Positions 5,426 through 21,824 of a stretch of DNA of 64,000 bases are shown here, piece by piece. The position numbers and the translations under genes were made by a program. Where the stretch lies: the IMG/VR virus record IMGVR_UViG_3300037467_000966; one strand, 5' to 3'. The notes under the pieces are model-generated. The model was given only the letters and a program-made list of their open reading frames with translations. It was not told the origin of the DNA and did not search any database. Every line of letters begins with the position of its first letter. Within the stretch, counting starts at the first letter, position 1. This DNA comes from a virus. Its lineage: Duplodnaviria > Heunggongvirae > Uroviricota > Caudoviricetes.

Positions 5426-5512
5426 TGGAGCTGCCAGGAGGATTCGAACCTCCGACCTCTCCCCGTCGATGTGGACTCTTGGGGGAGTATTCTACCGCTG
5501 AACTACAGCAGC
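5426..5512 (-). tRNA. tRNA-like gene with encoded CCA. Canonical acceptor, D and T arms, but a 19-nt anticodon loop (12-nt insertion). Anticodon possibly AAG if the insertion lies after position 37.
   Basis: Minus-strand read GCUGCUG-UA-GUUCAGCGGUAGAAU-A-CUCCC[19 nt]GGGAG-AGGUC-GGAGGUUCGAAUCCUCC-UGGCAGC-U-CCA. The 7-bp acceptor stem pairs (two GU), and the T loop UUCGAAU is canonical. Confidence 0.5.
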
Positions 5513-7675: not shown

Positions 7676-8257
7676 TTAAGCGACTGTTAATCCATAATCT
7701 TTAACGAAACCAGCTAGGCCATTTGCATAACCAGCACCGATAGCGTTGAATTTCCATTCGCCGTTTACTTTATAAATCTCACAAACTGCTACTCCAGTTT
7801 CAATAGAGAAGTCCTCACCTAAATCAAAGCGAAGGATTTCTTCATTTGTGATTTGGTCATACACGCGGACATAAGCATTGGATACTTGTCCGAAGTTTTG
7901 AGAACGACGCTCTGCTTCATAGATAGTTACTACGAAAGCAAGCTTCTGAATGTAAGCAGGCATTACTGAAAGGTCAACTTTGATTGTCTCATCATCGCCC
8001 TCTGTGCCACCAGTCAACTCATCCCCTGAGTGCTCAACTGCACCAGAAGCATGACGTAGATTATTATAGAATATAAAGTCGCCTTCGTCACGAGTTTTAT
8101 TTAATTCATTAACCATGAATACTGAAACATCCAGGTCAAAGTCTGCTCCGCCAGCATACTTATTTGTATCCCAGCCTAATGCTACATTAATCTTTGAAAG
8201 GTTTGTTCCTTTCGTTAAATCAACACGTTGCCCTTTTTTTACCAACTCAACTGCCAT
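7676..8257 (-). CDS. terD: TerD-domain stress/tellurite-resistance family protein
   Basis: GWDTN...GADFDLDVSVF...GD..TGGTEGDDETIKVDL...FVVTIY.A...QNFGQVSNAYVRV..GEWKF.A.GAGYA.GLA is a near-textbook TerD. Confidence 0.9.
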   Translation of the reverse strand: MAVELVKKGQRVDLTKGTNLSKINVALGWDTNKYAGGADFDLDVSVFMVNELNKTRDEGDFIFYNNLRHASGAVEHSGDELTGGTEGDDETIKVDLSVMPAYIQKLAFVVTIYEAERRSQNFGQVSNAYVRVYDQITNEEILRFDLGEDFSIETGVAVCEIYKVNGEWKFNAIGAGYANGLAGFVKDYGLTVA

Positions 8258-8388: not shown

Positions 8389-9006
8389 TTAGTTGATTCC
8401 AGCTACATAAGCCTCAAGACCGCCGCCGTAACCAGCGCCAACAGCTTTGAATTTCCAATCTCCACTGTGCTCATAAAGCTCACCAATAACCACGCAAGTT
8501 TCAATTGAGAAGTCCTCTGATAAGTCATAACGAGCTACCACTTCACCAGTTCCATCATTGACTACTTGCACATACGCATTGTGTACTTGACCAAAGTTTT
8601 GGTTACGTGTTGCTGCATCATAGATAGTGATAGCAAAACGAACAAACTTTGCAGCGATAGGAAGCTTCGCTAAATCAATTGTTACTGTTTCATCAGGGCC
8701 AGTACCTTCACCAGTACGGTTATCCCCAGAGGATACCACGCTGCCCGTAGGGTCACTTGGATTATTGAAGAATACGAATGAGTTCTCAGATATGATTTTG
8801 CCTCCATCACCTAAGATTGCAGCAGATGCATCTAAGTCAAATGCAGAACCGTCATACTGATTAGCATCCCAACCTAATTCCACTTTGAATTTTGTTACTC
8901 CTGGTACTGATTTTGTAAGATTGATGTTACCGCCTTTTTGCAAATTAATCATTTTGTTATTCCTCCCAATTTTTCTTTTGATTTTTTCTTGAATATATTT
9001 TATCAC
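8389..9006 (-). CDS. terD: TerD-domain protein (second paralogue)
   Basis: LGWDANQYDGSAFDLDASAAIL...SGDNRTGEGTGPDETVTIDL...QNFGQVHNAYVQV...GDWKFKAVGAGYGGGL has very high similarity to canonical TerD. Confidence 0.9.
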   Translation of the reverse strand: MIKYIQEKIKRKIGRNNKMINLQKGGNINLTKSVPGVTKFKVELGWDANQYDGSAFDLDASAAILGDGGKIISENSFVFFNNPSDPTGSVVSSGDNRTGEGTGPDETVTIDLAKLPIAAKFVRFAITIYDAATRNQNFGQVHNAYVQVVNDGTGEVVARYDLSEDFSIETCVVIGELYEHSGDWKFKAVGAGYGGGLEAYVAGIN

Positions 9007-9786: not shown

Positions 9787-10047
9787 TCAATACTCCTTAC
9801 TTAGTAGCATTGCAGCGCCCTTATTGCTCTTTAAAGATTCGCTTAGGTACAATGGAGTAAACCCACGGTCAAAGGTTAGAATGCCTTCCCAACCTGCGTA
9901 CAAGCTGCCGTAGTTTTCTACAAGTCTAAAAGTTCCTTCGCATTTGTTTGGGGCCATACTAATTAACTCAAGCTTATGAAAGCTATACTCATATACCCAG
10001 CCAACTTTAAAACGATTGCCTTGTGAGTCACGTCTTTCTGGTGGCAT
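9787..10047 (-). CDS. KEW-tail family small protein (C-terminus ...AAMLLSKEY)
   Basis: First member, in transcription-terminal position, of a tandem array of small proteins sharing the C-terminal LL(S/D)KEW peptide. Confidence 0.55.
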   Translation of the reverse strand: MPPERRDSQGNRFKVGWVYEYSFHKLELISMAPNKCEGTFRLVENYGSLYAGWEGILTFDRGFTPLYLSESLKSNKGAAMLLSKEY

Positions 10048-10048
10048 G

Positions 10049-10342
10049 TTACCACTCCTTACTTAATAAATTAACGGCTTCTTTATTTGATTCAATAGCA
10101 ATTTCAACGGCGTCTTCTGCTGTTATACCTAGTCCTACTCCATTGCCCATAGGAACATTCATCCTACGTACAAACTCGGAGTAGTTATAATCATCAGGTT
10201 CCAAGCGGAGAACCTTCTCATTATCTTCACTAGGAATTACCCGATAGCCACCATTAGATTTCTTTTCTACATCAAAGACTTAACCTATCATTTTTTTATA
10301 CCACTTGCTAGTGGAAGAAATACTTTTAATTCGTACTTTCAT
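10049..10342 (-). pseudogene. KEW-tail family member interrupted by an in-frame TAA after codon 20 (nonsense pseudogene, or shorter product from an internal start)
   Basis: Minus-strand frame reads MKVRIKSISSTSKWYKKMIG*VFDVEKK...NKEAVNLLSKEW. The stop follows an A7 tract and the same frame continues to the family C-terminus. Confidence 0.5.
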
Positions 10343-10343
10343 C

Positions 10344-10652
10344 TTACCACTCCTTTGAAAGCAATCGCTTTGCTTCCATATTGTTTTTCGCTTGAGGAAA
10401 CATCAGGTCTTCTTCAGGATAAGAGTTCCTATAAGTTAGCGCATCCTGCGGCCAATCTTCTGGAGCCACTACGCGAATATCATACCACCATCCTGTCTTG
10501 AAATCACCGTCGTCCCAGAACACATCTAAGATTCTAGCTTGTGGTGTCTGCCAACTGCCGAGTTGCTTTATGTAATAAGCCTTTGGCTGTAGCGTAATGA
10601 TATCGCCTACCTTAAAGTTAGCCGTCTCCTTGCTCGGTCTATTTCTTGCCAT
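10344..10652 (-). CDS. KEW-tail family small protein (...EAKRLLSKEW)
   Basis: 102-aa ORF with the C-terminal family motif, tightly packed against its neighbours. Confidence 0.6.
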   Translation of the reverse strand: MARNRPSKETANFKVGDIITLQPKAYYIKQLGSWQTPQARILDVFWDDGDFKTGWWYDIRVVAPEDWPQDALTYRNSYPEEDLMFPQAKNNMEAKRLLSKEW

Positions 10653-10653
10653 C

Positions 10654-10959
10654 TCACCACTCCTTGCTTAAACGTTTTTTCGCTTCTTGATTTGTTACTG
10701 GAGGAGCTTCCGCCAACATCAAATCTATATCGCGATAATATAATTCATCTTGGGTTTCATCTTCCCAGAGGACAGAATATTGAAAGTGCTTAAAGTGTTT
10801 AGAATACTTTCCTTCTATCTCTCCTTGGTGACATCTACCCACAATGGTTCCGACAACAGCATATTCTTCTCCATTGTCACCTTCTCTTTTGTTTTGTTCG
10901 TACCACTCTGAATCATCTGTAAGTAGTACTTTCTCTCCTAATTCATACATACCTACCAC
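10654..10959 (-). CDS. KEW-tail family small protein (...EAKKRLSKEW)
   Basis: 101-aa ORF. The true start is probably ATG at 10948-10950 (MYELGEK...). Confidence 0.6.
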   Translation of the reverse strand: MVGMYELGEKVLLTDDSEWYEQNKREGDNGEEYAVVGTIVGRCHQGEIEGKYSKHFKHFQYSVLWEDETQDELYYRDIDLMLAEAPPVTNQEAKKRLSKEW

Positions 10960-11171
10960 TCCTTGTCCAATAGGGTAGAAGCCCCTTTGTTATTACTAGA
11001 TACAGGAGCTAAACATGATAGAAAAGAATGACATTCTACGCCATTGTCCCATTTAATACGAGGACTTTCTTTTCCTTCTCCTTCTATAATGGTTCCTGTC
11101 ATACCAACTGGAACATTATATCCTGGGTGTACATACTTAATTCGTTTGACTCTTTGACCTTTGTAATACAT
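10953..11171 (-). CDS. KEW-tail family small protein (...ASTLLDKEW)
   Basis: Start adjusted to the internal ATG (MYYKGQRVKR...) just after the upstream gene's stop. The longer track ORF overlaps its neighbour out of frame. Confidence 0.5.
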   Translation of the reverse strand: MYYKGQRVKRIKYVHPGYNVPVGMTGTIIEGEGKESPRIKWDNGVECHSFLSCLAPVSSNNKGASTLLDKEW

Positions 11172-11172
11172 T

Positions 11173-11445
11173 CTACCACTCCTTGTCCAGCAGCCTAGCA
11201 GCTTCCTTATTACTAGAAGAAGGAATAGAAATAATCCTATCTCCATATGGGTCTAGCCTGTGAGACACTACGCTGCCAAGCCAGCCGCATCCTTTTGGCT
11301 TTCTTACAATCGTTGCCATGTTAGCATGGTCATCCCAGGCCAAATCCCTTGGCAACTCAAAATCCATTCCAATTGCATCCATAGAAATAGATTTCCTTTT
11401 ATTCTGCCCTATGCGGATAATCGTTCCTTTTGGAAGCTTCTTCAT
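11173..11445 (-). CDS. KEW-tail family small protein (...EAARLLDKEW)
   Basis: 90-aa ORF, first gene of the tandem array. Confidence 0.6.
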   Translation of the reverse strand: MKKLPKGTIIRIGQNKRKSISMDAIGMDFELPRDLAWDDHANMATIVRKPKGCGWLGSVVSHRLDPYGDRIISIPSSSNKEAARLLDKEW

Positions 11446-12044
11446 ACCATCACTCCTTGAATAAAAAAAATTCTTTACCCAATAGAAAGTACAAACAAGA
11501 TAGGATTCGAATCAGCGTGTGCATGCCCCAGGTTAGCAGCTAAAGGAAACCATAGGTTCCTCCACTCATCTAATACCTATCATTGATAAGAGAACGTCAG
11601 ACCAGGCTGGTAATTTCTAGGCATGCATTTAACCCCACCTGTACCATGAGGTCACCTACAACGTCTTGGAATTCTCTTATGCGTACTCTCTATTCAGTAA
11701 AGAATTTAAAAAGCTCCTTGGGCAGGAAGAAAATAAGATACAATCATAGGCTTCAGTGCTTACCATCCGACAGTGGGACTCGAACCCACACGCCTCTCGG
11801 CGGACAGAGCTATCTCCGTCTGCGTCTGCCAATTTCGCCATGCCCGATGGGGCTTACTTGGCACCTATGATATGGAGAAGAACTTCGGATTGGTGTCTAT
11901 TGCAGACCCCAGAAGGAATCGAACCAGCTACTTTCCGCTTATAGGCGGCTGTTTTACCCAATAAACTATGCGGGCCTCCACTACACCGTAGTTCCTGGCA
12001 TTCTTCTCATTCTTATTCTCTACCTGCCCAAAGAGCAAGTAACC

Positions 12045-12645: not shown

Positions 12646-12990
12646 CTATTTTACATTCCATTCATATTTTTTCAAGAGGGATTTAGCCTCCGTATTCTTT
12701 TCAATGAATGGTTCGGCTTCATTCTTGCTAATCCACATCCACGGCCCTCTCTCATAACGCTCAGGCAAGTCGGAACTACGGTATGTTCGAATAATCTTAC
12801 CTACTCTTACATCGCCATCACTAATAAAAGTGCCAGTAGTTTCAACTCCTGTATGAACCAAGTACCAGCCGTACTTTGGGTCGCTGTCGTGTTCGTGTTC
12901 TTCAATGTAGACTTCTCGAATAGGATTCTGATTAAGGCTATCTCGAATATCACTGCTCCAATGATTCTGAACCTTTACGCGAACCTTCAT
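12646..12990 (-). CDS. KEW-tail-related small protein (...EAKSLLKKYEWNVK)
   Basis: 114-aa ORF. C-terminus is a variant of the family motif with a 3-aa extension. Confidence 0.5.
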   Translation of the reverse strand: MKVRVKVQNHWSSDIRDSLNQNPIREVYIEEHEHDSDPKYGWYLVHTGVETTGTFISDGDVRVGKIIRTYRSSDLPERYERGPWMWISKNEAEPFIEKNTEAKSLLKKYEWNVK

Positions 12991-13019: not shown

Positions 13020-13937
13020 TTACGCAGTAGCCTCCGTCTTTTTAGCAGGAACTTTCTTCGCTGGAGTCTTCTTTACTTCCACTTCAGCCTTTGGTTCTTC
13101 AACTGGTTCTGGTTTTAAGAAACGTGCCTTATTCAGCTTGGTATCAAAGCTCATCGTTTGTGCATTGAAGGTAACGGCATGAGTCTTTAATCCTTCACCC
13201 TGTCTTGCGTCAGCTGATAACACTGTATTGGCAAAACCTAATGCTAAGTTCGCTGCCGTTTGGTTCGTAAAGATGTTCTGAGGATTGCTCACGGCCCGCT
13301 CCGCACAACTCATTTCATGTGGAAGTTTATCTGTTGCCTCTAGAATCTCTGGATACATATCCGCTACGCTTGGAAGATTGAATAAGTGAGGAACCTTTTC
13401 GCCCTTCACAAAGTCACGTCCAGCATTGTAACCAACAACAACTTGACCAGCCCACTCTTCATTTCCCATGTCCAGCCAGAACATACCTTTTGTTTCCTTG
13501 AACACTTCATTCACAATCGCACGAGTCTTATTGTTATCCACCGCACCGACTACGAAAGGAACCAAGTTATGCCGATTAACAATTTGCTTTAACATCTTTG
13601 GCCCATCCAGATATTCTCCAATGATGGTTACCTCAACACCGAACGCACCGCCATAACGCATGCCCATGATTTCAGCTTTGTTATGACCAACATCTCTTGG
13701 CAAGAAGTTCTGACGTGTTAAGTTCTTATCCTCAACGCTGTCTGCATCAATGATAGTTACTGCATGCAATGCCTTGTTCTCCAGCTTAAGCATTCTGTTT
13801 TGAAGACTGATTTGACGAATTAATTGTGGAATAAAATAACCGCCGTTGCCGCCTGCTCCAATAATAATCCAATGCTTTGCCTTCTTTGCTTGTACATCCA
13901 AAGTATAAGTTGGTTCTAATGCCATTGATAAATCCAT
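13020..13937 (-). CDS. E1-like ubiquitin-activating enzyme (ThiF/MoeB fold)
   Basis: Rossmann motif WIIIGAGGNGGY, then IIDADSVEDKNLTRQNF...DVGHNKAEI (the E1/ThiF ATP-binding and arginine-finger region). K/P/E-rich C-terminal tail. Confidence 0.8.
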   Translation of the reverse strand: MDLSMALEPTYTLDVQAKKAKHWIIIGAGGNGGYFIPQLIRQISLQNRMLKLENKALHAVTIIDADSVEDKNLTRQNFLPRDVGHNKAEIMGMRYGGAFGVEVTIIGEYLDGPKMLKQIVNRHNLVPFVVGAVDNNKTRAIVNEVFKETKGMFWLDMGNEEWAGQVVVGYNAGRDFVKGEKVPHLFNLPSVADMYPEILEATDKLPHEMSCAERAVSNPQNIFTNQTAANLALGFANTVLSADARQGEGLKTHAVTFNAQTMSFDTKLNKARFLKPEPVEEPKAEVEVKKTPAKKVPAKKTEATA

Positions 13938-14007: not shown

Positions 14008-15294
14008 TTAATCTAAGAACCAATCATTACGTTCGCCATGAAGATGACCATAACCGCTGTTCTCAGTCATTGTATCACTCACAACGTAATCGTACCCAAG
14101 GTCAATCAGCTCTTGAACGATTTCCTTAACGGTCTCTTCCACTTCGCCAATTGATTTAGTGTCGTCTCCCAGATTTTTTTCCAGAAAAATTTCGACTTCT
14201 GTTCTCGGCTCGCTGCTTGCGCTTTTGCTCGCGCTGCTCCCGCTTAGTGATTCTTTTTTTTTAGAATCTAAGCCTTGTGCTTTCGCATTAGCTGCCACAA
14301 TATCATCCTTGTTCGCTCGTCCCCCTGGTGAGCCATGGTAGCCATAGCCGCCAGATGTCCCATACCCATAGTAGTCCCACTCGTCCCCCCACTTGTCGTA
14401 ACTGGGAGATGTCCCTGTCCCCGACTTTTTTGCGTGATAGTTGTAACCTCCGTAAGAACGAGAGTGTTGTCCCATCCAATCGTCTGGAGCTTCAACACGA
14501 GGCCATGGTCCTTTAAATGATTTGTGTTCTACTTTTTCTTCGACTACTGGTTCGAATCCTTCTACTGGTACAGTAGTTGTTACCAGTGTCTTGATTTCTA
14601 CTTGAGGAATATCAAACAGCAAAGCTGGGTCAATGTTTACGCGTGTGCCGCCACATACCCAACGGAATAAGAAGTTTGGTTCATCCTTGTCGATGTTGCC
14701 CCATACTCCGTAGAACTGAGTCATGTTTTCATTGGCATCATCTGTACCAGACCAGAACGCTCCCATCGTATGGTGGCTGTGCGTCTCACATAATGGTGTG
14801 CAATTCTCACGAAGATAATTCACCATCCCATCCTGATGGAACTCAGATAATGAACCAGAGTTCTTTTGCTGTGGACAATACACAATCAACTGTCCATCTT
14901 CAATAAGGCCCTTGATGTCTGTGCCATCTGTATACTTTGGTGGCAGCTCCACATTATCATGATTCCAGAAGAACAATGCGCTGGCTTCTGTCTTATCCTT
15001 CGTATGAACATCACGATAGAAAGTTAATACCATGATTAGATACTTCAAAGGAATCTTTGGAATCAATAACTCTGGACCTTCTTCCATTGATTCAAGACCT
15101 GGAATTGCTTTGTCCGCTGGGATATCTGAAAGCTTTACTTTGAATAAAGCAACAGGAGTCTTCACCACTCGGAAGACCCCGTTACGTGCAACAACGATAT
15201 TGGTTGGTTTATCATAAGCCTCAGCTGGTTGTGGACCGAAGTGCTTACCTACTAATTGACCTGCTAACATTGCGGTTAAATCTAAATTTGCCAT
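14008..15294 (-). CDS. JAB/MPN (JAMM) metallopeptidase with long low-complexity G/Y/S-rich C-terminal region
   Basis: Perfect JAMM motif E...HSHHTMGAFWSGTD (H-x-H-x7-S-x2-D). Confidence 0.75.
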   Translation of the reverse strand: MANLDLTAMLAGQLVGKHFGPQPAEAYDKPTNIVVARNGVFRVVKTPVALFKVKLSDIPADKAIPGLESMEEGPELLIPKIPLKYLIMVLTFYRDVHTKDKTEASALFFWNHDNVELPPKYTDGTDIKGLIEDGQLIVYCPQQKNSGSLSEFHQDGMVNYLRENCTPLCETHSHHTMGAFWSGTDDANENMTQFYGVWGNIDKDEPNFLFRWVCGGTRVNIDPALLFDIPQVEIKTLVTTTVPVEGFEPVVEEKVEHKSFKGPWPRVEAPDDWMGQHSRSYGGYNYHAKKSGTGTSPSYDKWGDEWDYYGYGTSGGYGYHGSPGGRANKDDIVAANAKAQGLDSKKKESLSGSSASKSASSEPRTEVEIFLEKNLGDDTKSIGEVEETVKEIVQELIDLGYDYVVSDTMTENSGYGHLHGERNDWFLD

Positions 15295-15336: not shown

Positions 15337-16095
15337 TTAACGTAAATACTGTTCACCATGACGACGAATGGCATCGCCTAAACGAATTGCTGGCTGTAAA
15401 ATATCATTCTTGAATCGTGGTGTTTCCCCTTTTGCGTCTGCTTCTTTACAGATTCTGTCCATGTATTGCAGTAAGTGAATCGTTCTCTCACGTACAATAC
15501 GTTGACCGTTTACCGTATCTTCAAAGCGCTCAAACTTGCCGCCATCTAAATCATTATTAAATGGATTAGCGAAGAAGCGGTCTGGAACAGTCATGATGGA
15601 TTTAGAACCACCAAGCGCTGGGTAATCAGACTCAGAACCCCAGCATAGGTAACTATGATTAGAGTTCGCAAATGGGAATGTATACAATTGGTCATTCAAG
15701 CTAAGCACAGGTTGCTTAATCGCATATGCTACTCCGTGGCGATACCGACGCGTATCATTTGCTGGGTTGTGCAAAACATGAATAATCCAAACTGCTGCTG
15801 GTGCTACAATCTGAAACTCAGGGAACGCATTCTCCCCTGTCTCGCTTCTCATATCAAACTTGGCAATGTGCCTTGTCTCTGGAGTTGCGATAACATACTG
15901 TTCCATGTTATTAACCTTTGTATATTTTTGTACGCCAAAACCATAAGGAAGAAGCGGCGATTCAATCCGCTCACCTCTGGTTAGGACTTCTTGAATTGCT
16001 TGAACATTTGTATTTTTGATTGAGCGCTCTCCATTACGGATAACTTCAATCTGAATACTATCTGGATTTAAGTGAATACTTGTGCGGTTTTCCAT
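15337..16095 (-). CDS. Putative E2-like (UBC-fold) conjugating enzyme
   Basis: FPFANSNHSYLCWGSESDYPAL aligns with the UbcH5 active-site region [23 protein letters not shown] (NSN-x-S-x2-C followed by S-x-W/Y-x-PAL). Adjacent to JAB and E1. Confidence 0.45.
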   Translation of the reverse strand: MENRTSIHLNPDSIQIEVIRNGERSIKNTNVQAIQEVLTRGERIESPLLPYGFGVQKYTKVNNMEQYVIATPETRHIAKFDMRSETGENAFPEFQIVAPAAVWIIHVLHNPANDTRRYRHGVAYAIKQPVLSLNDQLYTFPFANSNHSYLCWGSESDYPALGGSKSIMTVPDRFFANPFNNDLDGGKFERFEDTVNGQRIVRERTIHLLQYMDRICKEADAKGETPRFKNDILQPAIRLGDAIRRHGEQYLR

Positions 16096-16107
16096 TTCAA
16101 TTCCTCC

Positions 16108-17811
16108 TTAGAATGGTAAATCTTCTTCGTAAGTGTACTCTTCAATTACATCAAATGGCAGATGGTAATCATGGATTGCAACCCTTGCTCCATTGCTTAT
16201 ACCAGCGTATACGCATGCAGCATCAAGCTCACGGAAACGTCTTACATCCCCGCCTTCACGAATAACTACATAGCGCTCTAGTGGAATCGCTCTGCCGTTC
16301 ACATAGATGCCAGGTGCTGTTGCCCGCGGTGGTTCTGCAGTTGGTTCAGCTTGTACAACTTCTTCCACCTGAGCATTTAATCGAGCAATCAACTCATCAA
16401 ATGGCGTCTGCGTTGGAACTTCTTCCACCACTGGTTGTGCTGGCTGAGCTTGCAACTGTTGACGAAGTTGTTCAGCTAAAGCATGACGGCGTTCAGCATT
16501 GGCTCTCGCTTCTGCTTCTATACGCTGACGTTCTTGCTCTTCCAACTCTTGGAGTCGCGCTTCTTCCTCTTGGCGTCTTATGCGCTCAGCTTCCTGACGA
16601 GCACGTTCTTGTTCCATCTCACGACGGATTTGCTCTTCACGCTGACGACGTTCTTCTTCTAAACGAAGTCTTTCTGCTTCTTGACGAGCACGCTCTTCTG
16701 CCTCTTCACGCTCCTTCTGAATACGCTCCTGCTCTAACCAAGGCTCAATCTCAGCCTCCGCCTCACGACGGATACGCTGAGTAACCTCTAGCAACTCAGT
16801 ATGTCCTTCTGGCAATAAGTGCTTCCAGAATTCCATATTAAATTCAGCATAGATGTAATCTTGGATAACGATTGGAGCAACACCATTACGGCTACGGTCA
16901 CCAGTCATATCAATGCTGGTAACTTTACCCCAACCTTGCAGCTCATAACCTTCTGGCTCTTGGTAACCATCGAATGGTGGCAATGCAATCCATCCTTCTT
17001 CTTCAGAACCTGATGGAGCCATAACCTTTACCTTGAGTCCTGTAGGCACCATTTCCGCCGCTGTAGGAGCGACAGCATATTCAGGAGCCTTACCATTCTC
17101 TCTTGCCCATTCAAGGAACTTGTGAGCAAATAAGCGGTCTGTTGCATCAGCTGATTCTTGAAGCTGAACCGCTGGCTTGAATAACTTCTCCATCACCCTG
17201 CGGCTATAATCTCGAAGCTCAGTGCGGATACGCTCTAATCGTTCTTGCTCACGGCGCTGAATCTCTGCTTCCATTAACCTTGTAACTTCACCATGGATTG
17301 CAGCTAGCGCAGAATCCTTACTGTACTCAGCATCAATCCAGTTAACAAAATCAACTAGGCCAGACTGAATGAATTGATAGATGCGATTGGTCTTGAACGG
17401 AATGTACAAGAATGTATTCCCGTTTCTTTCTTCGCGGCGAACCACATAACCAGATTGAAAAGAATTACGATTGTCTCTCATTCTCCTATAAAGCTGATTG
17501 TGGTTCTGCTCAAACCAAGACTTCCATTCAGGTTCACTATTATAGATTTCTCTTATCTTGTTAGCTTTCCTGTGGATGTGACTATCAAGACGTAGAGAAT
17601 AACTATGTTGGTTCTGTCTAATGCGACAGCCAGGGAACTTCTTCTTTAGATAAGCGAACACTAAATCTTTCACTATCTCTTCTTCCTGTGCTCCTGTTTG
17701 TGGAAGCGGCGGAAACTCTTCAATGTATTGCTTGTTGGCAAGTAGCCTAGAACTCATTACAAAGTTTAACTTGCTGACTAATGCGGTTGCATTAACTGTC
17801 ATGTCCCTCAC
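16108..17811 (-). CDS. Large hypothetical protein with long E/R/Q-rich coiled-coil segment
   Basis: 567-aa ORF inside the Ubl-E2-JAB-E1 operon. Candidate adaptor, E3 or target. Confidence 0.6.
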   Translation of the reverse strand: MRDMTVNATALVSKLNFVMSSRLLANKQYIEEFPPLPQTGAQEEEIVKDLVFAYLKKKFPGCRIRQNQHSYSLRLDSHIHRKANKIREIYNSEPEWKSWFEQNHNQLYRRMRDNRNSFQSGYVVRREERNGNTFLYIPFKTNRIYQFIQSGLVDFVNWIDAEYSKDSALAAIHGEVTRLMEAEIQRREQERLERIRTELRDYSRRVMEKLFKPAVQLQESADATDRLFAHKFLEWARENGKAPEYAVAPTAAEMVPTGLKVKVMAPSGSEEEGWIALPPFDGYQEPEGYELQGWGKVTSIDMTGDRSRNGVAPIVIQDYIYAEFNMEFWKHLLPEGHTELLEVTQRIRREAEAEIEPWLEQERIQKEREEAEERARQEAERLRLEEERRQREEQIRREMEQERARQEAERIRRQEEEARLQELEEQERQRIEAEARANAERRHALAEQLRQQLQAQPAQPVVEEVPTQTPFDELIARLNAQVEEVVQAEPTAEPPRATAPGIYVNGRAIPLERYVVIREGGDVRRFRELDAACVYAGISNGARVAIHDYHLPFDVIEEYTYEEDLPF

Positions 17812-17816
17812 CTCTC

Positions 17817-18368
17817 TTAAATAAAGTCAATAGATTCAACTGCTACTGTTCTTGCACGAGTTATTTGATTCACAAAGCCAACGACTTGTCTTTCTACTTC
17901 TGGCAAACGACGCTGTATCTGATGCTTAAAATCATTAAGTTGACTATCATTGTAACGACTAAAGTCCTGAACGGTTTGTGCATTGTTTATCGTTTCAATG
18001 ATTTGTCTTAGGTCAGATGTCAGCAAAAATCTTTCCCGTTCACCCTCAAGGTCATTACAAATCCTTGCGATGTCTGGTAAGAATCCATTTGCTTCCCAGT
18101 GGTCAGCAGGCTCTTCATTCCTTACTACTTCTACTTCCACTGCTGGTCTTGCCTGTACTGCTTCTTCTGGATTCACTTGTTCATTCCTCCTTAGTGATTC
18201 ACATCTTTGACAAACTCGATAATGTGAATAAGAATCTCTATCAACCGTTTGGTTGCTGAAGCCTTGACCGCAATACATTCTGTCGCCGCTTCTTCTAATA
18301 TGAAGAACTCGCGTTGTATTACTTGGAACATACTCAATCGTTGCTACCATCTCTACACTCCCTTTCAT
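17817..18368 (-). CDS. Hypothetical protein with N-terminal Cys cluster (C-x19-CxxC), possible zinc-binding module
   Basis: 183-aa ORF directly downstream of the hexa-repeat gene. Confidence 0.55.
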   Translation of the reverse strand: MKGSVEMVATIEYVPSNTTRVLHIRRSGDRMYCGQGFSNQTVDRDSYSHYRVCQRCESLRRNEQVNPEEAVQARPAVEVEVVRNEEPADHWEANGFLPDIARICNDLEGERERFLLTSDLRQIIETINNAQTVQDFSRYNDSQLNDFKHQIQRRLPEVERQVVGFVNQITRARTVAVESIDFI

Positions 18369-18428: not shown

Positions 18429-19508
18429 TTAAGCTAATTTAATCACTAGCTTTGTGAAACGGGCACCTTTCGTACCAGCTTTCACGGTGAAACGAATCTC
18501 GTCGCCAACCACTTCGAATGTTGCATTCTTCAGTTCAGGGAAGATTTCGCTCATGGATGCCTGGATTTCTTCAGGCTTTAAGCTGTCGTCTTCCACGTTA
18601 AGGCGGTTAGAGCCGTATACAACGACTCTCGCACCTTTCGTACCAGCCTTAACAGTGAATCGGATTTCATCCCCAACAACTTCAAACGTTGCGTTTTTCA
18701 ACTCAGGAAAGATTTCAGACATGGAAGCCTGAATCTCTTCTGGTTTTAAGGAATCATCCTCAACATTTAAACGATTAGAACCATAAACAACTACGCGTGC
18801 CATACCTTTCGTCCCCGCTTTCACTGTGAATCGAATTTCATTTCCAACTACCTCGTAGGTAGCATTCTTCAACTCTGGAAAAATCTCAGACATAGATGCC
18901 TGGATTTCTGCTGGAGTCAAAGATGAGTCCTCTACATTCAGACGGTTTGAACCATACACAACAACTCTTGTCATACCTTTTGTACCTGCCTTTACTGTGA
19001 ATCGGATTTCGTTTCCTACTACTTCATACGTAGCATTTTTAAGCTCTGGGAAAATCTCGCTCATAGAAGCTTGAATCTCCGCTGGTGTTAAAGAAGAATC
19101 TTCAACATTCAAACGATTGGAGCCGTAAACAACCACGCGGGTCTGGCCTGAACCAGAACCCTTTGTGCCTGCTTTGACAGTGAAACGAATCTCATTGCCT
19201 ACGACTTCGAAAGTAGCGTTCTTAAGCTCAGGGAAAATCTCAGACATAGAAGCTTTGATTTCCTCTGGGCTTAAAGAATCATCCTCAACGTTTAAGCGGT
19301 TGGAACCGTATACCACAACGCGGGTAGCACCCTTCGTCCCAGCTTTAACTGTGAAGCGGATTTCGTTTCCAACGACTTCGTAAGTTGCATTCTTTAACTC
19401 AGGAAAAATTTCAGACATTGACGCTTGAATTTCTGCAGGTGTTAAAGAAGAATCCTCCACGTTAAGACGATTTGAACCATAAACCACTACTCTTGTTTGA
19501 TTAGACAT
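18429..19508 (-). CDS. Tandem hexa-repeat small-domain protein (6 x ~57 aa, each unit ending ...KAGTKG), candidate polyubiquitin-like precursor
   Basis: Six near-identical units (T)RVVVYGSNRLNVED(S/D)SL(T/K)P(A/E)EI(Q/K)ASMSEIFPELKNAT(Y/F)EVVG(N/D)EIRFTVKAGTKG. First gene of the operon that ends with E2-like, JAB and E1. Confidence 0.6.
   Translation of the reverse strand: MSNQTRVVVYGSNRLNVEDSSLTPAEIQASMSEIFPELKNATYEVVGNEIRFTVKAGTKGATRVVVYGSNRLNVEDDSLSPEEIKASMSEIFPELKNATFEVVGNEIRFTVKAGTKGSGSGQTRVVVYGSNRLNVEDSSLTPAEIQASMSEIFPELKNATYEVVGNEIRFTVKAGTKGMTRVVVYGSNRLNVEDSSLTPAEIQASMSEIFPELKNATYEVVGNEIRFTVKAGTKGMARVVVYGSNRLNVEDDSLKPEEIQASMSEIFPELKNATFEVVGDEIRFTVKAGTKGARVVVYGSNRLNVEDDSLKPEEIQASMSEIFPELKNATFEVVGDEIRFTVKAGTKGARFTKLVIKLA
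18462..19499 (-). repeat. Six tandem ~171-180 bp near-identical coding repeats
   Basis: DNA-level repetition is visible (e.g. gtgaaacgaatctcgtc/gccaac...cttcagttcaggg recurs with period ~171-180 bp). Confidence 0.85.
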
Positions 19509-19857: not shown

Positions 19858-20037
19858 TTACAAACCCATTTTCTTGATTACTTGATTCTTCATCTTGCGT
19901 TTTACTCCATTGACTTTTGAGTTCAACTTCTTCTTGATGAACTTCTCAGGGTCGGCCTGCATCTCAAGGGCCGCGGCCATGGCGTTCAACTTCTTCGCCA
20001 TAGCACGCAACTCTTTCGGGTTGTTAGAGAACAACAT
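19858..20037 (-). CDS. Small basic protein (59 aa), translationally coupled (TAATG) to the upstream gene
   Basis: Minus-frame MLFSNNPKELRAMAKKLNAMAAALEMQADPEKFIKKKLNSKVNGVKRKMKNQVIKKMGL. Below the 60-aa track threshold. Confidence 0.4.
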   Translation of the reverse strand: MLFSNNPKELRAMAKKLNAMAAALEMQADPEKFIKKKLNSKVNGVKRKMKNQVIKKMGL

Positions 20038-21824
20038 TATTTGTTGCCCTTAACATCCTTAGCTTGTGCTTGTGGAGCTGCTGGGGCGCCTCCAAACAGA
20101 CCACCTTGACCATTGAATCCACCCATTAAAGCAAGAGTAGTTAGGTCAAGTTCGCCATCGCCAAGAGCTAGCATCATCATTGGATTGAAGTTGCCGCCGC
20201 CTTGTTGACCCATCATCATCAATGGAAGAAGCTTATCCTTAGAACCGCCATCTTTCATTGCAAGAAGCATCAATGGATTGAATCCTTGAGAAGCTACTCC
20301 ACCTTGTTGCATCAACATTAATGGTAGTAAGTCATCCATGTTATCGCCAAGAAGCATTAACATTGTTGGGTCGATTGCTCCACCCTGAGCACCACCAAAG
20401 CCGCCAGTAAGAGCCATGATTTTCACAAGCTCATCCTTGTTACCATCGCCAAGGGCAAGAAGTAAAGCTGGGTTGAATCCGCCTTGACCAGCAGCATCCA
20501 ATGTCTTAACAACAGTGTAGAATGCTTTACCAAAGATTGGGTTAGTAGTTGGTAGTACAGAACCATTAGCGTTCTTTTCAGGTACAACCACTTCTACATA
20601 ACCATCATTTACTTTAGTAACATACCCAAAATCAGCACCGTTTAATACAATGTCTCCAACTTTTACTTCATCAGCAGCAGTTGGTAATTTGAATGCAGGT
20701 ACATTGAAGTCAAGAGTTAATCCAGTTACATCAGTGATAGTGCGTGTTGCTGGTTCGAATGCCACAAAGTTTTGAGAGATACCTTTACGAAGTGCAAGAC
20801 CGCCAGTTGTGATTGAGAATGCAAATTTTCCTTCTACTTTACCAAATTGATTTTTGAATGCTCCGAATAAGTTTTTCATAGTTCCATTACCTCCGATTGT
20901 TTTGTTTGATTTTTGGTTTAATTTTGCGTTTAATTGAGCTTGTACATCAGCTTGCTGTTTTGCTTGTGCTAACTTTTGGTTTAATTGATTTTGAATATCC
21001 ACTTTCAACGCCTCCGCTTTTTGTTTTTGTTCGATTGCTGCCACACGATTGATAGCTTCATATGCTGCATCTTGTGCATCATACGCTACATCAGCAACAC
21101 TTTCGATTTCGTGAGCAACATCACTCACTCTGTCATCAAGGCTACCAATTTCATAACCAAGACTGTTTACTGCGCTTTGAAGACGACTTGCATCTTCTCG
21201 TACTTCGTTTGCCCTTTGCTTTGCAATTGCCGCATCAAGCCGTGCTTGGCTACCCACTTGCTGAGCAGATTGAGCACGAAGATTAGCTGTTAAAGAAGAT
21301 TGTTTTGCTTCTTCAACTTCCTTGCTGATGTTGTTCACGCCATCAAACATGCTGACATGTGAATAAGCATGAGAGTGAGCTAGGTTATAGTCGCCATAAA
21401 AAGATTCAGCACCACGGAAAGCGTAGTAATCGTCGTCCTCTTCCTCCTCTTCGTCATCCTCATCGTCCCAATCGTCATCTCCGTAGATATCATCTTCTGT
21501 ATAGCTAGAAGCTTGTTCTACTTGAGCGCGAAGAGAATCAGTTAACGACTGACCTTTCACTTGCGCCCGAAGCTGAGAAGTTAAATCATTCTTCTTTGTA
21601 TCAACCACGTTAACTAGATGATACTCAGCTCCTTCATATCCTTGAATCAGAGTGCCAATACCACGCTTCTGAGATTCAAAGATGCCAGCTGCTACTTGCT
21701 TACGAACAAGAACTTGATGTCCTGTATTCGTATCAATCTTGTAGTTGCTCCCTCCAATCGTAATAATTTCACCAACTGCGACATCAGATAGTTTTCTTAA
21801 ACCCACTGTGTCAACCTCCTTCAT
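20037..21824 (-). CDS. Large hypothetical protein: N-terminal domain, poly-acidic tract (DDDWDDEDDEEEEEDDD), coiled coil, C-terminal Met/Leu/Gly-rich repeats (FNPxLLLAxGDG...GG)
   Basis: 595-aa ORF with 3-4 degenerate C-terminal repeats. Confidence 0.7.
   Translation of the reverse strand: MKEVDTVGLRKLSDVAVGEIITIGGSNYKIDTNTGHQVLVRKQVAAGIFESQKRGIGTLIQGYEGAEYHLVNVVDTKKNDLTSQLRAQVKGQSLTDSLRAQVEQASSYTEDDIYGDDDWDDEDDEEEEEDDDYYAFRGAESFYGDYNLAHSHAYSHVSMFDGVNNISKEVEEAKQSSLTANLRAQSAQQVGSQARLDAAIAKQRANEVREDASRLQSAVNSLGYEIGSLDDRVSDVAHEIESVADVAYDAQDAAYEAINRVAAIEQKQKAEALKVDIQNQLNQKLAQAKQQADVQAQLNAKLNQKSNKTIGGNGTMKNLFGAFKNQFGKVEGKFAFSITTGGLALRKGISQNFVAFEPATRTITDVTGLTLDFNVPAFKLPTAADEVKVGDIVLNGADFGYVTKVNDGYVEVVVPEKNANGSVLPTTNPIFGKAFYTVVKTLDAAGQGGFNPALLLALGDGNKDELVKIMALTGGFGGAQGGAIDPTMLMLLGDNMDDLLPLMLMQQGGVASQGFNPLMLLAMKDGGSKDKLLPLMMMGQQGGGNFNPMMMLALGDGELDLTTLALMGGFNGQGGLFGGAPAAPQAQAKDVKGNK

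What the first reader, a model, noticed from the sequence alone, without database searches (positions are those of the whole stretch)
15337..16095. Cryptic UBC-like active-site region in a 252-aa ORF between the poly-Ubl/coiled-coil genes and JAB
The segment YTFPFANSNHSYLCWGSESDYPALGG lines up with the UbcH5 catalytic region [24 protein letters not shown]. Both have P-x-x-NSN-x-S-x-x-C and then S-x-(W/Y)-x-PAL. That is a lot of coincidence for a gene sandwiched between a poly-Ubl gene and JAB plus E1. The upstream part has alternating hydrophobic strands (FQIVAPAAVWIIHVLH) compatible with the UBC beta-sheet.
Basis: seen in the sequence. Interest (0 to 1): 0.55.

Follow-up and report, generated by a model that had tools for sequence, protein, structure and literature searches.

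The report
Divergent E2-like enzyme in phage cassette
This 252-residue phage gene is a very diverged member of a known bacterial family of E2-like (ubiquitin-conjugating-enzyme-like) proteins, and it sits in a complete ubiquitin-like tagging cassette of a type whose biochemistry I could not find tested anywhere.

Summary
The ORF (15337-16095, minus strand, 252 aa) is real and sits in a tightly packed operon. The quoted peptide is at residues 138-163. The ORF itself hits no Pfam, NCBIfam, PHROG, PADLOC or PDB sequence model. Its orthologues (49-73% identical) pass Pfam's threshold for Prok-E2_D (PF14460). A profile of the family retrieves 341 representatives; of 145 aligned, 125 match Prok-E2_D and 104 match PRTRC system protein B. 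The neighbours are 6x Prok_Ub, a JAB peptidase (PRTRC_A-like) and a ThiF E1 (PRTRC_ThiF-like). This is the "6d" operon of Iyer et al. 2006.

Cys151 (99%), Asn144 (99%), Pro141 and Trp152-Gly153 are near-invariant across the family. Profile-profile alignment to eukaryotic UBCs puts Cys151 on the catalytic Cys and Asn144 on the HPN Asn (P = 2.8e-4; 0 of 523 shuffles reach it).

Verdict: the E2-like reading is supported, and this is a new, divergent member of a known but uncharacterised family, carried by a relative of Bacillus jumbo phages.

The parts
15337..16095 (-). 252-aa E2-like protein, a divergent Prok-E2_D / PRTRC_B family member (the finding)
   Evidence: ORF. Orthologues hit PF14460 at 25-36.8 bits against a gathering score of 25. 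A family profile retrieves Prok-E2_D/PRTRC_B proteins. AlphaFold model has pLDDT 89.3.
15637..15687 (-). Active-site motif, residues 137-153 (LYTFPFANSNHSYLCWG). The family consensus is LYxxPFxNVxxxxxICWG. The Cys151 codon is 15643-15645 and the Asn144 codon is 15664-15666.
   Evidence: Conservation in 145 sequences: P141 97%, N144 99%, C151 99%, W152 94%, G153 96%. hhalign to UBC places N144 on N77 and C151 on C85, P = 2.8e-4, with 0 of 523 shuffled profiles reaching the score. Codons read.
15547..15576 (-). Second conserved motif after the helix that follows the Cys, residues 174-183 (FFANPFNNDL; consensus FFxxxFNxDL)
   Evidence: F174 91%, F179 82%, N180 98%, D182 91%, L183 92%. The relaxed hhalign places it opposite the UBC 'PNPDDPL' region at low confidence.
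15856..16095 (-). N-terminal beta-rich extension, residues 1-80, present across the whole Prok-E2_D family and not part of a canonical UBC domain
16103..16109 (-). Shine-Dalgarno site AAGGAGG, 7 nt upstream of the ATG, overlapping the stop codon of the upstream gene
   Evidence: Read from the sequence.
18429..19508 (-). Poly-Ubl precursor: six head-to-tail Prok_Ub repeats each ending AGTKG, plus an 11-aa C-terminal cap
   Evidence: PF14454 5.9e-30 with 6 stretches. TIGR03738 PRTRC_C 8.3e-15. Repeat dissection.
17817..18368 (-). 183-aa operon protein with an N-terminal Cys-rich segment; function unknown
   Evidence: ORF. Only sub-threshold Pfam hits. A small gene occupies the same position in L001, L003, L004, L007 and L008.
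16108..17811 (-). 567-aa protein with a central Glu/Arg-rich stretch (read as coiled coil from the sequence). By position it is the counterpart of the '6d' alpha-helical protein.
   Evidence: ORF. No family hit. A 503-579 aa gene lies immediately upstream of the E2-like gene in every related locus. Iyer 2006 description.
14008..15294 (-). JAB/JAMM peptidase with an N-terminal JAB-N-type domain (PRTRC_A-like). The motif E103...H172-S-H174...S182-x-x-D185 is intact.
   Evidence: PF14464 25.3 bits. TIGR03735 8.3e-10. Motif conserved in orthologues.
13020..13937 (-). ThiF-type E1 adenylyltransferase (PRTRC_ThiF-like) with a Gly-rich ATP loop and a conserved Cys211 in 'SCAERAVSNPQNI'
   Evidence: PF00899 2.4e-11. 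TIGR03736 8.2e-37. Alignment.

Best explanation
The ORF encodes the E2-like carrier enzyme of a phage-borne '6d'/PRTRC-type ubiquitin-like conjugation cassette.

Proposed pathway:
1. The JAB peptidase cuts the six-repeat poly-Ubl precursor after each ...AGTKG and removes the C-terminal cap.
2. The ThiF-type E1 adenylates the exposed C-terminal Gly. It probably passes through a thioester on its conserved Cys211.
3. The Ubl is handed to Cys151 of this protein as a thioester.
4. Cys151~Ubl is then discharged onto amino groups of still unknown phage or host targets. The 567-aa helical protein and/or the 183-aa protein may assist.
5. JAB may also reverse the conjugation.

Asn144 plays the role of the Asn of the UBC 'HPN' motif. 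The FNxDL motif after the next helix may supply the acidic residue near the active site.

Shown here: family membership, operon composition and synteny, near-invariance of Cys151 and Asn144, and profile-level alignment of this motif to the UBC active site.

Inferred: the thioester chemistry, the order of steps, the E1 Cys intermediate, the role of FNxDL, and the targets.
For: 1. Family. 11 of 26 close homologues hit Pfam Prok-E2_D, the best at 4.2e-9 and 36.8 bits against a gathering score of 25. The matches span residues about 53-198, including the Cys. 8 of 26 hit TIGR03737 PRTRC_B. A profile of the clade finds 341 representatives at E <= 1e-3 among 1.84 billion. Of 145 aligned, 125 hit PF14460 (best 1.2e-17) and 104 hit PRTRC_B (best 7.4e-14). 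A 34%-identical plasmid homologue is named 'prokaryotic E2 ligase family D protein' in RefSeq.

2. Context. The operon holds Prok_Ub x6, JAB (PRTRC_A-like) and ThiF (PRTRC_ThiF, 8.2e-37) in the same order as related loci, with no other E2 candidate. This matches operon type 6d of Iyer et al. 2006, PMC1779556.

3. Active site. C151 99%, N144 99%, P141 97%, W152 and G153 94-96% in 145 sequences.

4. UBC relationship. hhalign of the family against 10 eukaryotic E2s aligns 29 columns, with N144 on N77 and C151 on C85, P = 2.8e-4. None of 523 column-shuffled UBC profiles reaches the score (real 30.9, maximum 24.5). A relaxed alignment extends over UBC residues 4-131.

Against: - The window protein itself hits no family model at E <= 1 and no PDB sequence.
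- hhalign probability is only 41%, over 29 columns. The close-clade alignment alone gives nothing.
- The His of HPN is absent. The conserved His C-terminal to the Cys that Iyer et al. reported for 6d is not seen: no His column reaches 25%.
- There is a precedent for a wrong Pfam 'Prok-E2' name. Prok-E2_C turned out to be an inactive adenylation domain of the Bil E1 (PMC10557695).
- I found no biochemical study of any Prok-E2_D protein.
- I could not inspect 3D coordinates, so spatial equivalence of the Cys is inferred from topology and sequence alignment only.
Confidence: 0.75

Rival explanations
1. The Prok-E2_D family is not a true E2. It would be a different Cys-dependent enzyme or an adaptor of the cassette (for example a Ubl-specific peptidase, a transferase, or an E3-like factor) that was named 'E2' only from weak 2006 profile matches.
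Against: No conserved His or other nucleophile partner exists for a Cys-protease-type dyad. The only near-invariant polar residues are N144, C151, N180, D182 and K27. The Cys/Asn spacing and the flanking secondary structure copy the UBC active-site loop. E2/UEV/RWD folds dominate the recognisable hits for the core domain. The cassette already has a JAB peptidase and has no other E2 candidate.
Confidence: 0.15
2. It is a catalytically inert UEV/RWD-like Ubl-binding subunit. Conjugation would be done directly by the E1 or not at all, for example if the cassette served sulfur transfer or partitioning.
For: RWD and UEV proteins are among the structural matches. The PRTRC cassette has been loosely called a 'partitioning cassette' in the literature (PMC13366799).
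Against: The Cys is conserved in 99% of 145 divergent family members, together with the Asn. Inactive E2-like domains characteristically lose the Cys, as in Iyer 2006 row 6e. A JAB peptidase and a capped poly-Ubl precursor ending in Gly point to C-terminal activation and conjugation.
Confidence: 0.06
3. The resemblance to UbcH5 is chance, in an unrelated conserved phage protein.
For: The pairwise similarity is marginal (p about 0.02).
Against: Independent profile evidence places the family in Prok-E2_D. The hhalign match to the UBC active site exceeds all 523 shuffles. The cassette context is the one expected for an E2.
Confidence: 0.04

Closest known systems
Prok-E2_D (Pfam PF14460) / PRTRC system protein B (TIGR03737): the E2-like protein of the '6d' operon of Iyer, Burroughs and Aravind 2006
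   Same: Homologous by profile searches. The length is similar (about 210-290 aa). It has the same PFxNV...ICWG and FNxDL motifs. It has the same neighbours and order: Ubl, small gene, about 500-aa helical protein, E2-like, JAB with N-terminal domain, ThiF E1.
   Different: It is so diverged that the curated HMMs do not detect the window protein itself. It is carried by a relative of virulent-type Bacillus jumbo phages rather than an ICE or plasmid with ParB. Its Ubl partner is a six-repeat capped precursor rather than a single small Ubl. The conserved His reported downstream of the Cys was not found.
Eukaryotic UBC-fold E2 enzymes (for example UBE2D2/UbcH5B, Pfam PF00179)
   Same: A conserved Cys sits in the loop between the last core strand and the following helix. 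A conserved Asn lies 7-8 residues upstream. The local profile alignment covers beta3, the loop, beta4, the Asn and the Cys. E2s recur among the structural matches.
Experimentally characterised bacterial E2s: CBASS Cap2 E2 domain (6a/6b), BilB (Bil, 6c-related), BubB (Bub, 6e)
   Same: Each is the E2 step of a bacterial Ubl/E1/JAB cassette on mobile elements. Divergence from eukaryotic E2s is of a similar order; BubB superposes on UBE2D2 at 3.8 A over 104 C-alpha atoms according to PMC11601596.
   Different: PADLOC models for these systems do not hit the window E2-like protein, and only weak E1-E2 models hit its E1. Cap2 and BubBD are E2-E1 fusions, and BubB uses Ser instead of Cys. Those systems are host antiphage defences, whereas this cassette is in a phage genome.
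Eukaryotic polyubiquitin precursor genes (operon-level comparison)
   Same: Head-to-tail Ubl repeats end in Gly, followed by a short C-terminal cap that must be removed before activation.
   Different: The Ubl family is different (Prok_Ub, about 57 aa, single terminal Gly). Processing by the JAB peptidase is presumed and has not been shown.

Membership tests
Prok-E2_D (PF14460) / PRTRC_B (TIGR03737) | The window protein itself scores above the curated HMM threshold | tested here: not met
   No Pfam or NCBIfam hit at E <= 1 for the window protein.
Prok-E2_D (PF14460) / PRTRC_B (TIGR03737) | Homology to the family shown through orthologues and through a family profile | tested here: met
   Full-length orthologues at 49-73% identity score 26.1-36.8 bits against a gathering score of 25. 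The A1 profile retrieves 341 representatives. Of 145 aligned, 125 hit PF14460 and 104 hit PRTRC_B.
Prok-E2_D (PF14460) / PRTRC_B (TIGR03737) | Conserved Cys-containing motif | tested here: met
   C151 99%, N144 99%, P141 97%, W152 94% and G153 96% in 145 sequences. The window protein has all of them.
Prok-E2_D (PF14460) / PRTRC_B (TIGR03737) | Absolutely conserved His C-terminal to the Cys (Iyer et al. 2006, row 6d) | tested here: not met
   No His column reaches 25% in the 145-sequence alignment. H207 is conserved only in the close phage clade. This may reflect alignment or subfamily differences.
'6d' operon (Iyer et al. 2006) | Neighbourhood of a small Ubl ending in Gly, JAB with an N-terminal domain, E1-like, E2-like and an alpha-helical protein | tested here: met
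   Prok_Ub x6 ending in Gly, JAB (PF14464/TIGR03735) with about 90 residues ahead of the JAB domain, ThiF (TIGR03736 at 8.2e-37), and a 567-aa protein with a Glu/Arg-rich central stretch.
PRTRC cassette (ParB-related, ThiF-related cassette) | Associated ParB-related gene and PRTRC proteins D, E and F | tested here: not met
   No ParB or PRTRC_D/E/F hit among the operon proteins and the flanking ORFs that were scanned. The rest of the window was not scanned exhaustively.
UBC/E2 superfamily | UBC fold (alpha/beta: 4-strand meander followed by helices) | tested here: inconclusive
   [not shown]
UBC/E2 superfamily | Catalytic Cys in the loop between the last core strand and helix 2, aligned with the E2 Cys | tested here: met
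   hhalign puts C151 on C85, P = 2.8e-4, with 0 of 523 shuffles reaching the score. In the model C151 lies 12 residues after strand 136-139 and 13 before helix 164-176. Spatial superposition was not possible with these tools.
UBC/E2 superfamily | HPN motif upstream of the Cys | tested here: inconclusive
   The Asn is present and 99% conserved (N144 on N77). The His is absent: T139 sits at that position. The Pro is displaced (P141 lies within an FPF insertion).
UBC/E2 superfamily | E1-dependent Ubl thioester on the Cys | not testable with these tools
   Needs biochemistry.
Bil / Bub / type II CBASS E2s | Match to the curated defence-system models | tested here: not met
   No PADLOC hit for the E2-like protein, JAB or Ubl to Bil/Bub/Cap models. 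The E1 gives only weak E1-E2 hits, the best at 1e-6.

The most novel reading that the evidence does not exclude
A clade of Bacillus jumbo phages and related 220-240-kb Bacillus/Cytobacillus plasmids runs its own complete ubiquitination-like pathway during infection. It would have a polyubiquitin-style precursor, JAB processing, an E1 and this Cys-dependent E2, and it would tag phage or host proteins. This would make the uncharacterised '6d' family a virus-side protein-conjugation system rather than a host defence or a plasmid-partition device. The family-specific N-terminal domain of the E2 might serve as a built-in substrate or E3-like module.
Probability: 0.4. Interest if true: 0.7.

Novelty: new member of a known kind. 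Interest (0 to 1): 0.4.

Why it matters
According to the papers I read, four of the five bacterial E1/E2/JAB operon types predicted in 2006 have now been worked out: 6a/6b as CBASS/MBL, 6c as Bil and 6e as Bub. All turned out to be real conjugation systems with surprises, including one wrong 'E2' assignment and oxyester chemistry. I found no experimental study of type 6d (Prok-E2_D/PRTRC).

This window shows a compact, apparently intact 6d cassette in a phage related to cultivated Bacillus phages (KLEB27-3, WH1, Edson). It has a clear catalytic-Cys candidate (C151) and a polyubiquitin-like precursor. That gives a tractable system for asking what 6d does and whom a phage-encoded Ubl pathway modifies.

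For annotation, it shows that the 'hypothetical protein' next to the PRTRC_A-like and ThiF genes in these phages is the missing E2-like component.

Tried and rejected
- Direct family scans of the window protein (Pfam, NCBIfam, PHROGs, PADLOC) and phmmer against PDB gave no hits.
- hmmsearch of the family profiles A1 and A2 against PDB sequences gave nothing meaningful.
- Foldseek of the full model against PDB found nothing at E <= 0.001.
- hhalign of the shallow close-clade alignment against UBCs found nothing. Only the deep 145-sequence alignment gave the active-site match. Global-mode hhalign was uninformative. My first shuffle control used the wrong match-state option and was discarded; it was redone correctly.
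- Megablast of the operon against phage genomes found no match.
- Three scans of IMG/VR viral contigs (A1, A2 and the single protein) found no relatives or could not be run.
- The contexts of two remote homologues were on contigs too short to be informative.
- tblastn of a remote family member against plasmids gave only one partial hit.
- A cysteine-peptidase reading was considered and rejected, because no conserved His exists.
- Membership in Bil, Bub or CBASS was rejected on PADLOC results.

Full report
**1. What is there**

The finding's coordinates match an ATG-initiated ORF of 252 aa on the minus strand (15337-16095). An AAGGAGG ribosome-binding site lies 7 nt upstream. The gap to the stop codon of the preceding gene is only 12 nt.

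The ORF is the fourth gene of a co-directional block:
- a 359-aa protein made of six Prok_Ub repeats (18429-19508);
- a 183-aa protein (17817-18368);
- a 567-aa protein with a Glu/Arg-rich central stretch (16108-17811);
- the target ORF;
- a 428-aa JAB peptidase (14008-15294);
- a 305-aa ThiF-type E1 (13020-13937).

Family support for the neighbours:
- Ubl: PF14454 at 5.9e-30, TIGR03738 PRTRC_C at 8.3e-15.
- JAB: PF14464 at 25.3 bits, TIGR03735 PRTRC_A at 8.3e-10.
- E1: PF00899 at 2.4e-11, TIGR03736 PRTRC_ThiF at 8.2e-37.

The window is phage DNA. It carries a phage-type DNA polymerase, NAMPT, a sigma factor, a tRNA nucleotidyltransferase, TerD genes and tRNAs. The polymerase is 60-61% identical to those of Bacillus jumbo phages vB_BauM_KLEB27-3, vB_BceM_WH1 and Edson.

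**2. Checking the observation**

- The ORF reads P-F-A-N-S-N-H-S-Y-L-C, then S-D-Y-P-A-L.
- UbcH5 reads [10 protein letters not shown], then S-Q-W-S-P-A-L.
- Each half therefore needs a one-residue indel.

In 1000 shuffles, 18 reach that score, and the optimal path puts the two Cys one position out of register. Taken alone, the similarity is suggestive but not compelling.

Most of the matched residues are not conserved. Among 26 close homologues the 'NSN' reads NVD, NCS, NTT and so on, and 'PAL' reads PVL, PEL or PTI. Only P141, F142, N144, C151-W152-G153 and P159 are invariant. The strands claimed upstream are genuine in the model, at 93-98 and 101-110.

**3. What the protein is**

The window protein alone hits nothing in Pfam, NCBIfam, PHROGs, PADLOC or PDB sequences.

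A search of the 5.8-billion-protein collection returned 29 full-length homologues, 49-88% identical, all from metagenomes.
- Eleven of 26 aligned members match Pfam Prok-E2_D (PF14460). Several exceed the gathering score of 25 bits: P0026 at 36.8 bits, P0024 at 35.1 bits, and P0022, P0019, P0028, P0005 and P0027 at 26-29 bits.
- These matches span residues about 53-198, that is, across the Cys.
- Eight match TIGR03737 PRTRC_B weakly.

A profile of this clade, searched against 1.84 billion cluster representatives, found 341 proteins at E <= 1e-3 and 105 at E <= 1e-10. Of 145 that I aligned, 125 match PF14460 (best 1.2e-17) and 104 match PRTRC_B (best 7.4e-14). No other family recurs.

The ORF is therefore a strongly diverged member of Prok-E2_D / PRTRC protein B. 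A 34%-identical homologue on a 240-kb Cytobacillus plasmid is already named 'prokaryotic E2 ligase family D protein' in RefSeq. The equivalents in B. thuringiensis pBTHD789-2 and in the three Bacillus phages are 'hypothetical protein'.

**4. The system it belongs to**

Iyer, Burroughs and Aravind (2006, PMC1779556) described operon type '6d'. Its components are:
- a small Ubl with a C-terminal Gly;
- a JAB with an extra N-terminal domain;
- an E1-like protein;
- a largely alpha-helical protein;
- an E2-like protein with a conserved Cys but without the classical His.

The Pfam names Prok-E2_A to E appear to follow their table rows 6a to 6e. This is my inference from the matching descriptions.

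The gene order Ubl, small gene, 500-580-aa protein, E2-like, JAB, ThiF recurs in every related locus I examined:
- a 246.7-kb metagenomic contig (L001);
- phage KLEB27-3 (L003);
- a 138-kb contig carrying a homologue only 23% identical (L004);
- the Cytobacillus and B. thuringiensis plasmids (L007 and L008).

No ParB or PRTRC D/E/F protein was detected among the genes I scanned. The cassette is 6d-like rather than a full canonical 'ParB-related, ThiF-related cassette'.

**5. Is it really E2-like, and is Cys151 the active site?**

Conservation. Across 145 sequences that are mostly 17-30% identical to the window protein, the near-invariant positions are:
- P99 (100%), N144 (99%), C151 (99%), N180 (98%), P141 (97%), G153 (96%), W152 (94%);
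- P50 and L183 (92%), D182 and F174 (91%), K27 (90%).

No His is conserved anywhere. The consensus is LYxxPFxNVxxxxxICWG ... FFxxxFNxDL.

Profile-profile comparison. That alignment recovers the expected invariant H-P-N, Cys and Trp. The comparison gives one local hit of 29 columns, with probability 41% and P = 2.8e-4. In it:
- L137-Y138 aligns with I73-Y74;
- N144 aligns with the HPN Asn77;
- C151 aligns with the catalytic Cys85.

As a control, 523 column-shuffled UBC profiles gave scores of 12.7 +/- 2.5, with a maximum of 24.5, against the real 30.9. The reversed profile gave 10.8. With a relaxed threshold the alignment extends over UBC residues 4-131 and puts P159 opposite UBC Pro95, at low confidence.

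**6. Structure**

AlphaFold2 models are confident. The full-length model has pLDDT 89.3 and pTM 0.80. The model of residues 81-252, built with the deep alignment, has pLDDT 94.1 and pTM 0.88.

The order of elements around the Cys mirrors UbcH5. This rests on my knowledge of the UBC fold.
- This protein: strand 115-125, a 10-residue loop, strand 136-139, P141/N144, C151, a short helix at 155-157, helix 164-176, later helices at 205-222 and 239-250.
- UbcH5: beta3, the YPxxPP loop, beta4, HPN, Cys85, a 3-10 helix, alpha2, alpha3 and alpha4.

Extra features are an 80-residue N-terminal beta-rich region and a hairpin at 191-202.

Fold searches are weak.
- Foldseek finds nothing.
- E2-fold clusters are a tiny fraction of the 48,164 chains searched, so this enrichment is specific. 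No single score is significant.

For scale, the validated bacterial E2 BubB superposes on UBE2D2 at 3.8 A over 104 C-alpha atoms (PMC11601596).

I rate the fold criterion as inconclusive but leaning positive. I could not inspect coordinates.

**7. Caution and rivals**

Pfam's 'Prok-E2' labels are predictions. The Prok-E2_C domain was shown crystallographically to be an inactive adenylation domain of the Bil E1 (PMC10557695).

- A non-E2 Cys enzyme remains possible (about 0.15). It lacks any conserved His for a protease-type dyad, and the cassette otherwise has no E2.
- A dead UEV/RWD-like binder is unlikely, given 99% Cys conservation.
- Pure chance is excluded by the profile evidence.

**8. 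Likely mechanism (inferred)**

1. JAB has an intact E103...H172-x-H174...S182-x-x-D185 motif. It would cut the six-repeat precursor after each AGTKG and remove the 11-residue cap.
2. The E1 has a Gly-rich loop, a DxDxVxxxNLxRQ motif and an invariant Cys211 in SCAERAVSNPQNI. It would adenylate the terminal Gly.
3. The Ubl would move to Cys151 of the E2-like protein and from there to targets.

The targets and the roles of the 567-aa and 183-aa proteins are unknown.

**9. Novelty**

The family and operon type have been known since 2006. PRTRC cassettes were noted in temperate Burkholderia phages in 2026, with the remark that their function has not been studied (PMC13366799). I found no paper on Prok-E2_D biochemistry.

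The Corbett-lab papers I read describe CBASS, Bil (6c) and Bub (6e) as characterised, and say that other operon families remain uncharacterised.

What is new here:
- a divergent subfamily that is invisible to the curated HMMs;
- its location in relatives of Bacillus jumbo phages and in 220-240-kb Bacillus and Cytobacillus plasmids;
- its pairing with a capped poly-Ubl precursor.

This is a new member of a known kind. Interest is moderate, at 0.4.

Noticed in passing
window 18429-19508 (-); also L001 6710-7780, L003 3041-3748, L008 2140-2889, L007 2657-2998, L004 4545-4919: The Ubl gene is a polyubiquitin-style precursor: six head-to-tail 56-61-aa Prok_Ub repeats each ending AGTKG, followed by an 11-aa cap (ARFTKLVIKLA). 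Relatives carry 6, 4, 4, 2 and 2 repeats, each with its own short cap. The repeat number varies while the capped design is kept.
   Followed up: partly
window 9787-11445 (-) and 12646-12990 (-): A run of five small ORFs of 86-102 aa ends in nearly the same C-terminal tail...A(K/A)xLL(S/D)KEW or KEY; none of these five has a Pfam hit. A sixth ORF of 114 aa at 12646-12990, which also has no Pfam hit, carries a related ...LLKKYEW near its end. The meaning of the shared tail is unknown.
   Followed up: partly
window 7676-8257 (-) and 8389-9006 (-): Two adjacent full-length TerD-domain genes (PF02342, 6.8e-74 and 2.1e-67) lie a few kb downstream of the Ubl cassette in a phage genome.
   Followed up: partly
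window 5426-5512, 11764-11848, 11902-11976 (-): ARAGORN reports three tRNA-like genes with irregular anticodon loops (2- or 4-base 'anticodons', type '???'). Rfam confirms two as tRNA: 5429-5512 at 51.7 bits and 11904-11975 at 31.4 bits, just above threshold. The third is ARAGORN-only.
   Followed up: partly
window 14008-15294 (-), residues about 280-428: The JAB peptidase carries a Gly/Tyr/Ser-rich low-complexity stretch and an acidic C-terminal tail. L001 shares them, but the Bacillus phage KLEB27-3 orthologue lacks most of this region.
   Followed up: no
window 20037-21824 (-): A 595-aa ORF just upstream of the cassette has an acidic stretch and repeated GGFNPxLLLALGDG-like motifs in its C-terminal third. 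It has no Pfam or PHROG hit.
   Followed up: no
L004 10199-10849, L007 7901-8575, L008 8019-8705: In the plasmid and contig versions of the cassette, a 'reverse transcriptase-like' (RVT_3, RNase H-like) gene directly follows and overlaps the ThiF gene. In the window and L001 a small ORF and an NT5C 5'-nucleotidase are found downstream instead.
   Followed up: no
L005 536-1204 and 2176-2862: One short metagenomic contig carries two Prok-E2_D paralogues about 1 kb apart, which suggests that some cassettes have duplicated E2-like genes.
   Followed up: no
[not shown]
   Followed up: partly
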